From contig CM000433.1 in the NCBI GenBank assembly GCA_000165345.1, forward strand, positions 320,001 to 384,000: 64,000 nt of DNA. Direction: 5' to 3'. Both the position numbers and the translations under genes were made by a program. Numbering within the stretch: the stretch's first letter is position 1; every line of letters begins with the position of its first letter. Shown in pieces: positions 4,059-15,810 of the stretch. The notes beneath the pieces are model-generated. The model was not told the origin of the DNA. It searched no databases and worked only from the letters and a program-made list of their open reading frames with translations.

Positions 4059-7000
4059 ATGCATTCTATAACAATTACAGTATTATTTTGTTTACTAATT
4101 CTGTGCTTTAATAGTGTTCTAATCTTCTGTAATAGTTCATTGGAATCCATTCCCAGATTTCAGCTTGAAGATTTACAACTTGATCCAGAAAATTTATCTG
4201 AAAATTTTATTCGAACTCAAAATGGTTGGAATAATGGAGGTGAAAAGCTAAAAGATGAACAACTAAGTATTCTTCCTGGATATATGAGAGAAATTACTGG
4301 CTCTAGTTCGTCTTGCCCTGCTTCTAGATCATGTAATGTTAATAGGAGTGATGTAGATGAATTAGCTGAACGTGTATTTATTCTCCAATCAGAAATATCT
4401 GAACTTTCAGTCGACTTATCTTGGTATAAAGTTTGTGCATTTTCTATTTCAATTATTGATACGAAAACATCTTTTATGAGCCATTGCAGAAGTTCTGGAA
4501 TTTCATTTTTACTTTCAAGACCTGTCACTAAACTGTTGGAGCAATCAATTGTTAGGTTATGCCGCAATATGCCACAATATTCTACGTGCAATGGAGTTGA
4601 CTTAGCACTTGACTCTTTAACTGAAGAGTTGTTTACAGCAACAATACCACATGTCTTGCCAATTGCAAAAAAATCTCTCGCATTTACACACTTTTGTTTT
4701 GTTTCATCAAGAAGTATAAGAGCAAGAACTCGCGAGGAATACTTAGAAATTTGCCAAGATAGTATACTTTTACTTCTAAATTTGCATGAAATGTCGGGAT
4801 CACAAATTACTTCCTCTATTGCTGAACAAATTTGTAAATCTACATGGATATTTAATACAGAATGTAATGGGTTTAGCAATACAAAATTGATATCTGAAAT
4901 CGCGTTTGAAATGTTTGTCTTAATAAGAAAAGAAGGAATTCCAAACATTGATATGAATAATGTTTGTCAATTGCTGACAAAAATTTCTCCCACCCTGCGT
5001 ATACCATCCGATACAAAAACTCCAATTTCAAGTAAAAAGAGATATCTGTATGAGTGCGCAATGTACCTTACTTCAATGATAGAACATGAAAAGTTGGCCA
5101 ATCATTCTGACAATAAATATGAATCAATGGAGAAATTTTATTCTCGTGGGGAAATCGTTAAACGCTTTCATGATATTGCAACTTCAATTTGTACTTCTGT
5201 TTCATTTTATCAAAAAAAGAGTAAAAAGAAGATTTTTATTCCGGGATTTAAAAAAAAGAAGATAATGGAAAAAAAACAGGGTGAGTCGATTCTGGAACTA
5301 TTTATGAATTTGATGCAATCAGTTAAAGCTACGTCTAGAAGAGTGCTTGGTTGGACAATTGAACTACCTTTTCCCGGTAGCGACGAATCAAAAGCAATGC
5401 TCATGTTGGGCTATTCATTAAATACTGTAGATGTTAGATCTATCCAAAATCCACAATATATTAGGATGTTAGCCATTCTGCATTCGAAAAAATACATCTT
5501 ACCAAAAACTGCATACAATATTTGGAGAGATTCTGTACTGTCAATAGGAATTGAAATTTTGCCACCATTCACTCCAAGTCTCACACCTGGAATTATTGCA
5601 AGGCCGGAGAAAGATATAGTTGACTTAAAATTAAATTGTGGAAGCAATAACGAGGATGTTGACGCACTTGCACTTGAATTACTAAGTGTTTCGCATGAAA
5701 ACAATTTAACAAATCTAAAATTTTATCAATTTTGTAAACCATCTGAATCTCTTGTTGGTGTTAGGAGTGAGGATTTCTATTCATCATGTATCGAGGCATT
5801 AAAGTATATACCAGAACTCGATATTCATACAAACAAAATTACAGGAAAATACTTGGCAATTCCACTTCACAAAATTTCAAAACTATGTCAAGATACTCCC
5901 AGATGGGAATCAACTTCATCAGGTCTGTCTTATGCATCTTTAATAATTCAGGATAATTTGAGGAAGAAAGACGAATTTAATAAAACAATGAAACCTTATT
6001 CAAAATTGAGTATGTTAACAGACAGAGATATACACTCATATGTAATAAAGACAGCAGCCAGGTCTGCTCTAGAACGTTCAGCTGCATCTGAACAAATTTG
6101 TAAACAGTTAAAACCAGTATATTCTGAAGAAGATAATAGTTTCCAGTTCAATACCCAAATAGATCCAGATAATCTTCAAAGCATTGCAAATATATTGTTT
6201 AGGAAAGCAGTATCGTTATTAGACGAAGATAAACAACTTGCCCTTTCTCTGTCTGGAAATATAGTAAAAGGGTCAAACCCAGTCACATTCGAATCATTCT
6301 GCTCCCTTGTGCTTGCTCTCTCAAAAGTTGAAAAAAAGTATTTCAATTCTGAATGCGCCAGAAATCTGAGATTGATGTTCAGACAAAAGGTGGTTATTAA
6401 TGGCAATGTAAGACTTGCGACAATTAAATCTAGAACCATTACCAAAATATGTATGTCTTCACCACTGTTTGAAAAATGTGGAAATTACAAAAATAATGAG
6501 ATAGATGAAATATCGTATGATCTATTACTGGGTGCCCAAAAACTAAGATTTACTTCAATTACTTATCGTCATATATGCAGCGTCGTGAAGAACATAAGGA
6601 GAGGAGAAATTAAAAGTTTAATTCCCAAGGGGCAAACAAATAATACAAATATTAGTAGCTTTTTTAATAGCGATTGTATTTATGGGTTAAGAACGCTTTC
6701 GATCGGTGCTAGACATGCAGAAATAATATGCAGTGCAACAAGGTTTTGGGTTATGTGTGGGAGCCATATGGACTCAGAAGTTGATGCACTGGCATCACAA
6801 ATATACTCTGAGGTTGTTCAGAATACTGGCCTTGCAAGGTTCATAACAGTATCTTTATTTGAGTTAGTGGACTTTTGCCCAATTGCTGAAGCTCTATTAC
6901 ATGAAGTGGATTTAAGGTTTTTCAATCGTGAATGTGTAAATGCGCTCGCAGCTATGTCAATAAGTAAGGAATATGGAATGTCAATTTGTCAAAGTTCAAG

Positions 7001-15810: not shown

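What the first reader, a model, noticed from the sequence alone, without database searches (positions are those of the whole stretch)
4059..15810. Tandem pair of giant secreted proteins built from the same novel recurring cysteine module
Two adjacent same-strand genes encode intronless proteins of 1234 aa (4059-7763) and 2592 aa (8032-15810). Both have N-terminal signal peptides. Both are made almost entirely of a recurring module of about 60-110 aa with invariant spacing: F-[NK]-x-x-C-[VIM]-x-x-L, then about 15-25 residues, then [IV]-C, then about 5-8 residues with a conserved W, then C. Examples are FNRECVRELIGSNESNSEYIPMNFAIFICSSSLRWEKC, FNIICVDELSISSKLVLGRSWLPSTKNIIDICRNNPLWITC and, in the first gene, FNRECVNALAAMSISKEYGMSICQSSRHWQGTC. 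I count at least 15 copies in the large protein and at least 5 in the smaller one. The module does not match any cysteine-repeat family I can name (not EGF, TSP1, Apple/PAN, COWP type I/II or Kazal). The genes look like a duplicated, expanding surface or secreted adhesin-like family of an uncharacterised type. They are the strongest candidate for new biology in this window.
Basis: seen in the sequence. Interest (0 to 1): 0.72.

Follow-up and report, generated by a model that had tools for sequence, protein, structure and literature searches.

The report
Cryptosporidium-only disulfide-stapled helical repeat proteins
Two neighbouring Cryptosporidium parvum genes (cgd5_1480 and cgd5_1490) encode large secreted proteins built from a four-cysteine, all-helical repeat unit that occurs only in this genus and matches no described domain; the proteins are made and seen by the human immune system, but their role is untested.

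Summary
The window is C. parvum chromosome 5. ORFs 4059-7763 (1234 aa) and 8032-15810 (2592 aa) are cgd5_1480 and cgd5_1490, annotated only as "Uncharacterized Secreted Protein".

A profile finds 8 and 18 copies of a ~85-115 aa module. 200 shuffles give nothing below E = 0.37. The module has four conserved cysteines, not three.

The pattern of missing cysteines supports C2-C3 bonds within a unit and C4-C1 bonds to the next unit. That would cross-brace the array. A conserved Cys-free central domain sits as an insertion in one C3-C4 loop.

The family is not expanding. Copy numbers (18 and 8), gap-free lengths and synteny with the NDK gene are the same in gastric C. serpentis. Modules are only about 19% identical and there is no DNA repeat.

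Both proteins are detected by mass spectrometry. cgd5_1480 mRNA peaks in asexual stages. 11-30% of infected children have IgG to cgd5_1490.

The function is inferred only: most likely stable extracellular scaffold cargo of the zoite secretory pathway. This is a new lineage-specific domain family, of moderate interest.

The parts
4059..7763 (+). Gene A = cgd5_1480 (EAK88102.1, CPATCC_002150), 1234 aa, intronless secreted protein with 8 modules
8032..15810 (+). Gene B = cgd5_1490 (EAK88100.1, Q5CRU0, CPATCC_002151), 2592 aa, intronless secreted protein with 18 modules
4059..4130 (+). Signal peptide of A (aa 1-24, ...VLIFC|NSS). The cleavage site is inferred.
   Evidence: Hydropathy; 'Secreted Protein' annotation
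8032..8100 (+). Signal peptide of B (aa 1-23, ...SVIFC|QEI). The cleavage site is inferred.
4332..5192 (+). A, N-terminal arm (aa 92-378): modules 1-3. It begins with a C4-like Cys92 and ends at C3 (Cys378).
5193..5636 (+). A, Lys-rich linker plus conserved Cys-free central domain (aa 379-526), inserted between C3 (Cys378) and a C4-like Cys527. It contains the invariant GY...QYI...P-x-x-AY-x-IW motif.
5637..7361 (+). A, C-terminal arm (aa 527-1101): modules 4-8, with a 110-aa helical insert (aa 618-729, Cys681) between modules 4 and 5. This is the best-conserved arm.
7362..7760 (+). A, Cys-free N/Y/R-rich tail (aa 1102-1234). It is poorly conserved except for a YRYNWA-x-LLG-x-KFF-x-P motif.
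8233..12348 (+). B, N-terminal arm (aa 68-1439): modules 1-14. It starts exactly at FNSFC72 (C2) and ends at C3 (Cys1439). Module 8 lacks C4 and module 9 lacks C1.
12349..13059 (+). B, Lys-rich linker plus conserved Cys-free central domain (aa 1440-1676), inserted between C3 (Cys1439) and a C4-like Cys1677. It is homologous to the central domain of A.
13060..14679 (+). B, C-terminal arm (aa 1677-2216): modules 15-18 plus a terminal half-unit that ends exactly at LDFC2216 (a lone C1).
14680..15807 (+). B, Cys-free Lys-rich tail (aa 2217-2592, 13% Lys). It ends in a genus-conserved motif IAALIGYNQIAVDLL.
11185..11457 (+). Module 11 of B (aa 1052-1142), the copy that was folded. It forms a confident four-helix domain (pLDDT 84.5, pTM 0.76).
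3996..4003 (+). E2F-like box TTTGGCGG, 63 bp upstream of the ATG of gene A. It lies in the 354-bp divergent intergenic region shared with the NDK gene.
7895..7902 (+). E2F-like box TTTGGCGC, 137 bp upstream of the ATG of gene B, in the 268-bp A-B intergenic region.

Best explanation
cgd5_1480 and cgd5_1490 are ancient tandem paralogs of a three-member protein family found only in the genus Cryptosporidium. The third member is the ~1,880-aa 'large secreted protein', e.g. C. muris CMU_014690.

Architecture. Each protein is a soluble secretory-pathway protein: signal peptide, no membrane anchor. Each is built as two arms of a ~85-115 aa all-helical unit with four cysteines (14+4 units in the large protein, 3+5 in the small one). 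The arms flank a conserved Cys-free central domain, and a Cys-free tail follows.

How it most likely works:
- Shown: the unit is a real, autonomously predictable four-helix domain with no detectable relative in Pfam or the PDB.
- Inferred from the pattern of cysteine presence and absence (about 0.75): every cysteine bonds to its sequence neighbour. C2-C3 clamps the helix-3/helix-4 hairpin. C4 of one module bonds to C1 of the next. The array would then be covalently cross-braced along its whole length, giving a long, stiff, protease- and reduction-tolerant rod with no free thiols for intermolecular cross-linking.
- Inferred: the central domain is an insertion in the C3-C4 loop of one unit. It is the most conserved part, so it is probably the functional or interaction site, held between the two arms.
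- Inferred, weak (about 0.4): the proteins are cargo of the zoite secretory pathway, with dense-granule-like expression company. They would be released as stable extracellular scaffold or matrix components at the parasite-host or parasite-lumen interface, where the host immune system sees them.
For: Identity and expression:
- Exact matches to C. parvum Iowa II proteins.
- Gene IDs and TMT-MS detection in excysted oocysts: log intensity 21.2 and 22.5, against 22.9 for dense-granule DG2.
- Peptides of both in lysates of cells infected for 3 h.
- cgd5_1490 is in an oocyst-proteome signature.
- IgG to cgd5_1490 in 29.8% (31/104) and 11.5% (50/435) of children.

Module reality.

Genus restriction:
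- The profile search of 1.84e9 representatives gave 8 hits. Seven are Cryptosporidium proteins and one is a spurious LRR protein.

No known family or fold.

Fold:
- pLDDT 84.5, pTM 0.76, four helices.
- The full-length model is all-alpha.

Disulfide topology:
- B module 1 lacks C1. Modules that precede the central domain or the tail lack C4.
- A lone C4-like Cys (C1677 in B, C527 in A) precedes the first post-central module. A lone C1 (C2216) ends the array.
- C4 of module 8 and C1 of module 9 are both absent in 7 intestinal species and both present in C. serpentis (C868, C900).
- With neighbour pairing, all 70 mature Cys of B and all 32 of C. serpentis A are paired. Each of the three intramodule schemes leaves 6 orphans in B.

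Shared central domain in all three paralog types.

Ancient, frozen architecture and synteny.

Expression company:
- cgd5_1480 is in the 'Asexual in vitro only' top-500 list together with DG2 and SG2.
- It is in a list with DG1, DG3, cgd4_3530 and cgd6_3050 (DG identities).
- It is not female-enriched: logFC -0.23 and -1.08.
Against: - No localisation, interaction or knockout data were accessible. The hyperLOPIT paper and the single-cell atlas are not held, so the functional part rests on expression company and sequence features only.
- The disulfide scheme could not be checked on coordinates, because the tools return none. In the single-module model, C4' would have to fold back along the helix-1/helix-2 hairpin to reach C1.
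- C. parvum A has 33 mature Cys, so one (C86 or C92) is unpaired or pairs with C24 if the signal-peptide cut is earlier.
- Presence in the oocyst proteome fits an oocyst-wall or residual-body role equally well.
- The full-length AlphaFold model was poor (pLDDT 38), so the rod shape is not demonstrated.
- AFDB could not be searched, so a structural relative among predicted structures is not excluded.
Confidence: 0.6

Rival explanations
1. They are structural proteins of the oocyst wall, or of the matrix inside the oocyst. They would work like COWPs: laid down by the female gamete or zygote and contributing to a disulfide-bonded protein layer.
For: - Signal peptide, cysteine-containing, large and repetitive.
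- Both are abundant in excysted-oocyst proteomes.
- cgd5_1490 is in the 'oocyst_proteomics_20' signature together with COWP1 and COWP8.
Against: - cgd5_1480 mRNA is not female-enriched: logFC female versus asexual is -0.23, and in vivo versus cultured females -1.08. It is in the top-500 list of asexual stages only.
- Cys content is 2.8%, about 4 per 95 aa. COWPs have a Cys every 10th-12th residue (PMC12548878 introduction).
- All Cys appear to be used in intrachain pairs, leaving none for intermolecular cross-links.
- The oocyst signature also contains actin, enolase and ribosomal proteins, so it includes sporozoite content.
- Peptides are present in lysates of cells infected for 3 h.
Confidence: 0.2
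2. They are micronemal or surface adhesins that bind host cells during attachment and invasion.
For: - Secreted, large and modular, like many apicomplexan adhesins.
- Present in sporozoite-containing material.
- cgd5_1490 is immunogenic in children, with a nominal association with delayed reinfection (beta 0.57, P 0.03, FDR 0.58).
Against: - No TM domain and no hydrophobic C-terminal (GPI-type) segment.
- No TSP1, Apple/PAN, EGF, Kazal, Sushi or other adhesive domain.
- Sequence and length are strongly conserved, with no repeat-number variation. This is unlike host-interacting, diversifying adhesins.
- The association with protection does not survive FDR correction.
Confidence: 0.12
3. They are luminal components of an internal zoite organelle that is not released, for example the crystalloid body or a storage compartment. 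They would have a structural packing role during sporogony.
For: - Signal peptide without an anchor.
- Abundant in oocysts and sporozoites.
- A genus-specific large protein could match a genus-specific ultrastructure. Crystalloid-body proteins are reported to be expressed by females and of unknown function (PMC13657310).
Against: - High asexual-stage expression of cgd5_1480 and no female enrichment.
- Antibody responses in infected children imply exposure.
- There is no direct evidence either way.
Confidence: 0.08

Closest known systems
Cryptosporidium oocyst wall proteins (COWP1-9)
   Same: Cryptosporidium secreted proteins with a signal peptide and no TM domain. They are built from tandem cysteine-containing repeats and are found in oocyst preparations.
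   Different: COWPs have a Cys every 10-12 residues and are female-specific (PMC12548878). Here there are 4 Cys per ~95 aa in an all-helical unit, and expression is not female-enriched. The module profile, searched against all proteins, returned no COWP.
Other lineage-specific Cryptosporidium secreted families in CryptoDB (CpLSP, HCD, WYLE, SKSR, MEDLE, GGC); the neighbour cgd5_1440 (DG2) is a CpLSP member
   Same: Genus-restricted secreted proteins of unknown biochemical function. cgd5_1480 shares expression lists with DG2, DG1 and DG3.
   Different: CryptoDB gives cgd5_1480 and cgd5_1490 no family tag. Those families are mostly subtelomeric, multi-copy and variable. This family has three fixed members with a frozen architecture. 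Sequence similarity to CpLSP members was not tested, because none lies in the window.
Disulfide-stabilised helical ectodomains of Plasmodium surface proteins (RIFIN V2 domain, P113 N-terminal region)
Rod-forming tandem helical repeats (e.g. spectrin-type three-helix repeats) and disulfide-braced extracellular tandem modules (e.g. EGF arrays). This comparison rests on general knowledge only.
   Same: The proposed working principle is the same: many small tandem domains, rigidly connected, forming a long spacer or scaffold.
   Different: There is no homology. Here rigidity would come from a disulfide that links consecutive helical units, a combination I did not find described. The rod shape is inferred, not shown.

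Membership tests
Known cysteine-repeat or adhesive domains in Pfam (EGF, TSP1, PAN/Apple, Kazal, Sushi, LCCL, 6-Cys s48/45, CAP etc.) | A significant hmmscan match to the family model | tested here: not met
   Full-length A had 0 families and B had 1 sub-threshold, irrelevant hit at E<=1. When the 66 module sequences were scanned one by one, no family recurred; the most frequent was DUF5854, 3 of 66, below its cut-off.
COWP family | Very high, regular cysteine density (every 10th-12th residue), as stated in PMC12548878 | tested here: not met
   2.9% and 2.7% Cys; four Cys per ~85-115 aa unit.
COWP family | Female (macrogamont)-specific expression | tested here: not met
   cgd5_1480: log2 means 8.11, 7.88 and 6.80; logFC -0.23 and -1.08. 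It is listed under 'Asexual in vitro only'. For cgd5_1490 the stage data were not retrievable.
RAP domain proteins (the UniRef name given to the C. hominis orthologs) | A match to the RAP domain model (Pfam PF08373) | tested here: not met
   No RAP hit at E<=1 in either protein. The name appears only on automatic UniRef entries.
CpLSP gene family (CryptoDB) | Annotated as a member by CryptoDB, or sequence similarity to members such as cgd5_1440 | tested here: inconclusive
   CryptoDB release 61 tags cgd5_1440 as CpLSP but gives cgd5_1480 and cgd5_1490 no family tag. No CpLSP sequence was available for a direct comparison.
Proposed new family: Cryptosporidium four-Cys helical repeat proteins (types A, B, C) | Tandem units with the pattern FNxxC ... 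[IV]C-x5-W-x2-C ... [IV]DxLAxxL ... FxxFC | tested here: met
   18 copies in B and 8 in A, with cross-validated HMMs. The same counts are found in all orthologs. Type C has about 3 good copies plus several weak ones.
Proposed new family: Cryptosporidium four-Cys helical repeat proteins (types A, B, C) | A Cys-free central domain with the invariant Y...Y...I..P..AY.IW core | tested here: met
   Alignment A4. A profile built from A and B only finds type C at iE 5e-8 to 7e-12.
Proposed new family: Cryptosporidium four-Cys helical repeat proteins (types A, B, C) | Neighbour-pairing disulfide topology: C2-C3 and C4(n)-C1(n+1) | tested here: inconclusive
   The topology is strongly supported by cysteine presence/absence, a correlated loss and a parity count. 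It was not verified on a structure or by chemistry.
Proposed new family: Cryptosporidium four-Cys helical repeat proteins (types A, B, C) | Restriction to the genus Cryptosporidium | tested here: met
   HMMER profile search against 1.84e9 representatives: only Cryptosporidium proteins plus one spurious LRR protein. The limit is HMMER sensitivity and the sampling of gregarines.

The most novel reading that the evidence does not exclude
The unit is a new extracellular fold class in which consecutive helical hairpins are interlocked by a disulfide that crosses the unit boundary. The result would be a covalently braced rod tens of nanometres long. The three family members would be the building material of a structure that only Cryptosporidium has, for example part of the layered host-parasite interface or feeder-organelle region, or tethers inside the oocyst. 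The conserved inserted central domain would act as the assembly or host-binding site. If so, cgd5_1490 would be a conserved, non-polymorphic, naturally immunogenic target.
Probability: 0.2. Interest if true: 0.7.

Novelty: new variant of a known kind. Interest (0 to 1): 0.45.

Why it matters
Cryptosporidium is a leading cause of childhood diarrhoea, and most of its secreted proteins have no known function. These two proteins stand out for several reasons:
- They are abundant in the transmissive stage.
- They are conserved without length change across the whole genus.
- They are absent from the host and from every other organism sampled.
- At least cgd5_1490 is recognised by antibodies of naturally infected children.

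Defining the repeat unit, its likely disulfide map and the inserted central domain gives clear domain boundaries for recombinant expression, structure determination, tagging and antibody work. It also adds a genus-specific domain family that could be deposited as a profile and used as a Cryptosporidium marker. More generally, it is an example of a long array kept frozen for the whole history of a genus, which argues for a structural role with strict length requirements.

Tried and rejected
1. Metagenome hit P0044 (E 1.7e-4). It lies on a contig with a NACHT gene and is an LRR-type repeat that matches only 'SLC..SSW'. Rejected as a chance hit.
2. Full-length AlphaFold2 of protein A with 8 orthologs. 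pLDDT was 38, so it was used only for secondary structure and not for fold search.
3. AFDB50 fold search. The library was not installed.
4. The weak RIFIN and P113 structural hits are at noise level and were not taken as homology.
5. Profile versus PDB sequences. The only hit was a designed helical repeat protein (E 0.0011, no significant stretch), judged compositional.
6. The search for homologous proteins with the central-domain alignment returned nothing, not even the query proteins. This is uninformative rather than negative.
7. Literature. No main-text mention of cgd5_1480, cgd5_1490, their accessions or their descriptive names was found in 8 million papers. The hyperLOPIT paper (PMID 36958336) and the single-cell atlas (PMC12057246) are not held. 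Three papers had no supplements held.
8. 'RAP domain' name of the UniRef entries: unsupported.
9. Intramodule disulfide schemes (C1-C2/C3-C4, C1-C4/C2-C3, C1-C3/C2-C4). Each leaves six orphan cysteines in B and does not explain the joint loss of C4(8) and C1(9).
10. Recent-duplication or expansion idea: rejected.
11. DG8 pull-down. cgd5_1490 is not significantly enriched (log2FC 1.35, p 0.26) and cgd5_1480 is not enriched either. There is no evidence of interaction.
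Full report
WHAT IS THERE

The window is Cryptosporidium parvum: it is about 31% GC, and its proteins match C. parvum Iowa II and ATCC records exactly.

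The two ORFs are as described: 4059-7763 (+, 1234 aa) and 8032-15810 (+, 2592 aa). They are EAK88102.1, 'cysteine rich protein having a signal peptide', and EAK88100.1, 'large cysteine rich protein'. The gene upstream on the minus strand (3036-3704) is a nucleoside diphosphate kinase with a signal peptide.

Supplementary tables of two papers fix the gene IDs: NDK = cgd5_1470, protein A = cgd5_1480, protein B = cgd5_1490. CryptoDB calls both 'Uncharacterized Secreted Protein' and gives them no gene-family tag, unlike the nearby cgd5_1440, which is tagged 'CpLSP gene family'.

THE REPEAT IS REAL, BUT HAS FOUR CYSTEINES

The cysteine positions show a strict four-beat period. Aligned modules give this consensus:

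[IV]-D-x-L-A-x-x-L ... F-x-x-F-C(C1) ... (Y)F-N-x-x-C(C2)-x-x-x-L ... [IV]-C(C3)-x5-W-x2-C(C4)

Statistics:
- A profile HMM finds 18 copies in B (aa 59-1427 and 1702-2145) and 8 in A. This includes seven copies that were not in the training set.
- 200 shuffles reach at best E = 0.37, and no other ORF of the window is hit.
- An HMM built from B modules only recovers all eight A modules, with whole-protein E 1e-42.
- Modules are only 9.6-28.8% identical to each other, mean 18.8%. There is no DNA-level repeat.

Only the C3-C4 spacing (9-11 aa) and the C4-C1 spacing (about 32-46 aa) are tight.

ARCHITECTURE

Both proteins have the same plan: signal peptide, module arm, Lys-rich linker, Cys-free central region, second module arm, Cys-free tail.
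- The best BLASTP block between A and B (E 1e-11) starts in the central region, not in the modules.
- The central region contains an invariant Y...Y...I..P..AY.IW core.
- Together with the C-terminal arm it is the most conserved part of both proteins.
- There is no hydrophobic segment other than the signal peptide.

DISTRIBUTION

The word-indexed searches found only orthologs in intestinal Cryptosporidium species.

The exhaustive HMMER search with the module profile against 1.84 billion representatives returned eight proteins:
- Orthologs of A and B, including gastric C. serpentis.
- A third paralog group of about 1,880 aa: 'large secreted protein' in chipmunk genotype I, C. muris CMU_014690, C. 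andersoni and C. serpentis.
- One metagenome protein that turned out to be an LRR/NACHT-context repeat and was discarded.

The third group also carries the central domain. A profile built from A and B alone finds it at iE 5e-8 to 7e-12. The family therefore has three members per genome and is confined to the genus, within HMMER's reach.

NOT EXPANDING
- Every B ortholog has 18 modules plus a terminal half-unit. Every A ortholog has 8.
- The module arms align with 0% gaps even between C. parvum and C. serpentis.
- The C. serpentis locus has the same order: a 728-aa gene, NDK on the minus strand, a 1,267-aa A ortholog (47% identical, 8 modules), then B.

The tandem duplication and both arrays therefore predate the deepest split sampled in the genus.

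KNOWN FAMILIES AND FOLDS
- Pfam: nothing for the full proteins, for 66 individual modules or for the central region.
- Profile searches against all PDB sequences: nothing credible.
- AlphaFold2 of full-length A with nine orthologs was poor (pLDDT 38) but all-alpha.
- One module (B aa 1052-1142) with a 66-sequence paralog/ortholog alignment gave a confident four-helix domain: pLDDT 84.5, pTM 0.76, helices at 2-14, 25-36, 40-52 and 70-77.
- Foldseek gave best E 0.93.
- AFDB was unavailable.
- The 'RAP domain' name on UniRef entries is not supported.

DISULFIDE LOGIC (INFERENCE)

The incomplete modules are informative:
- B module 1 lacks C1.
- Modules immediately before the central region (B 14, A 3) or the tail (A 8), and also A module 4, lack C4.
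- A lone Cys sits before the first post-central module (B C1677, A C527), before A module 1 (C92), and before A module 5 (C681).
- A lone 'F-C' (B C2216; C. muris type C C1803) follows the last complete module.
- In all seven intestinal B orthologs, module 8 lacks C4 and module 9 has Y or H in place of C1. In C. serpentis both are cysteines (C868, C900). This is a joint gain or loss of two residues in adjacent modules.

Only one scheme explains all of this: C2-C3 within a module plus C4(n)-C1(n+1). This is the same as saying that every Cys bonds to its sequence neighbour.
- It pairs all 70 mature Cys of B and all 32 of C. serpentis A.
- Each of the three intramodule schemes leaves six orphans in B.
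- C. parvum A has one extra Cys (33 in total).

The B array then begins exactly at FNSFC72 and ends exactly at LDFC2216. The central region becomes an insertion in the C3-C4 loop of one unit (A C378...C527; B C1439...C1677).

I could not verify the bonds on coordinates.

EXPRESSION AND EXPOSURE
- TMT proteomics of excysted oocysts detects both proteins: log intensity 21.24 and 22.49. For comparison, DG2 is 22.92 and NDK is 21.08. Levels are unchanged in a COWP8 knockout.
- Both give peptides in lysates of HCT-8 cells infected for 3 h, with no significant enrichment on DG8.
- cgd5_1490 is in the 85-gene 'oocyst_proteomics_20' signature of Tandel et al. That signature also holds actin, enolase and COWP1/8.
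- cgd5_1480 mRNA has log2 means of 8.11, 7.88 and 6.80 in the three sorted populations, with logFC -0.23 and -1.08.
- It is in the 'Asexual in vitro only' top-500 list with DG2 and SG2. It is also in a sheet that lists DG1, DG3, cgd4_3530 and cgd6_3050 (identities).
- On the Gilchrist et al. antigen array, IgG to cgd5_1490 was found in 31/104 and 50/435 children. The association with delayed reinfection is nominal and not FDR-significant: beta 0.57, P 0.03, FDR 0.58.

Each gene has an E2F-like TTTGGCG[C/G] box 63 bp and 137 bp upstream of its ATG. The box occurs 6 times in the window against 1.7 expected, and 2 of 100 shuffles reach 6. E2F-type boxes being common upstream of Cryptosporidium genes is my recollection, not checked here.

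INTERPRETATION

Firm:
- This is a genus-restricted, three-member family of secreted proteins.
- It is built from a previously undescribed four-helix, four-cysteine unit plus an equally undescribed central domain.
- It is ancient and architecturally frozen.
- It is expressed and immunogenic.

Probable (about 0.75):
- Neighbour-pairing disulfides brace consecutive units, so that the arms are stiff, stable rods with no free thiols.

Tentative (about 0.4):
- The proteins are cargo of the zoite secretory pathway, deposited extracellularly as scaffold or matrix. The central domain would be the interaction site.

Rivals are an oocyst-wall or matrix protein (0.2), an adhesin (0.12) and an internal organelle component (0.08).

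VERDICT

Novelty: a new lineage-specific domain family within the familiar class of apicomplexan modular secreted proteins. Interest is moderate.

Noticed in passing
window 3036-3704 (-): cgd5_1470 is a nucleoside diphosphate kinase with a signal peptide and a ~50-aa Ser/Thr/Glu-rich N-terminal extension. It shares a 354-bp divergent promoter region with cgd5_1480. It is among the most highly expressed parasite genes in vivo (rank 5 in PMC8852703). The NDK/A/B arrangement is conserved in gastric C. serpentis.
   Followed up: partly
window 733, 3996, 7895, 15827, 57181 (+) and 2599 (-): The E2F-like box TTTGGCG[C/G] occurs 6 times against 1.7 expected. At least four of the five + strand copies (733, 3996, 7895, 57181) lie just upstream of ORF starts, in sense orientation.
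   Followed up: partly
window 4217-4948 (-): A 243-aa ATG-started ORF lies antisense inside gene A. It has no Pfam hit and no module. It is probably a chance antisense ORF, but that was not tested.
   Followed up: partly
window 15763-15807 (B aa 2578-2592) and orthologs: The extreme C-terminus of protein B carries a genus-conserved motif IA[AS]LI[GA]YNQIA[VI]DL[LF]. It is also recognisable in C. serpentis (HLICYNQIASDML). It could be a sorting, retention or interaction signal.
   Followed up: no
orthologs P0040/P0041/P0038 (C. felis) and P0025 (C. ubiquitum): The C. felis B ortholog is split into two adjacent gene models (1864 aa and 328 aa, accessions KAF7457277 and KAF7457276), and its A ortholog is truncated (828 aa). 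The C. ubiquitum B model lacks the signal-peptide region. These look like likely annotation or assembly errors in those genomes.
   Followed up: no
UniRef entries for C. hominis orthologs: The orthologs of both proteins are named 'RAP domain-containing protein', and one C. meleagridis ortholog is named 'Integral membrane protein'. Neither name is supported by Pfam or hydropathy.
   Followed up: yes
type-C paralogs P0042, P0043, P0045, P0046 (not in the window): The third family member has the central domain near its N-terminus (aa ~165-315), plus one or two weaker partial copies of the 'RY-x-P-x-x-AY-x-IW'-like segment. Its good modules lie only in the C-terminal third. The C. parvum gene ID was not determined.
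   Followed up: partly
window 16196-16798 (+): A 200-aa TTG-started ORF just downstream of gene B is very hydrophobic (several TM-like stretches) and has no Pfam hit. An E2F-like box lies at 15827. I did not check whether it is a real gene.
   Followed up: no
A aa 386-410 and B aa ~1458-1520 (window ~5214-5288 and ~12403-12591): Strongly Lys-rich stretches (e.g. KKSKKKIFIPGFKKKKIMEKKQ) lie immediately before the central domain in both proteins. They are candidate protease-processing or polyanion-binding sites. This is speculation.
   Followed up: no
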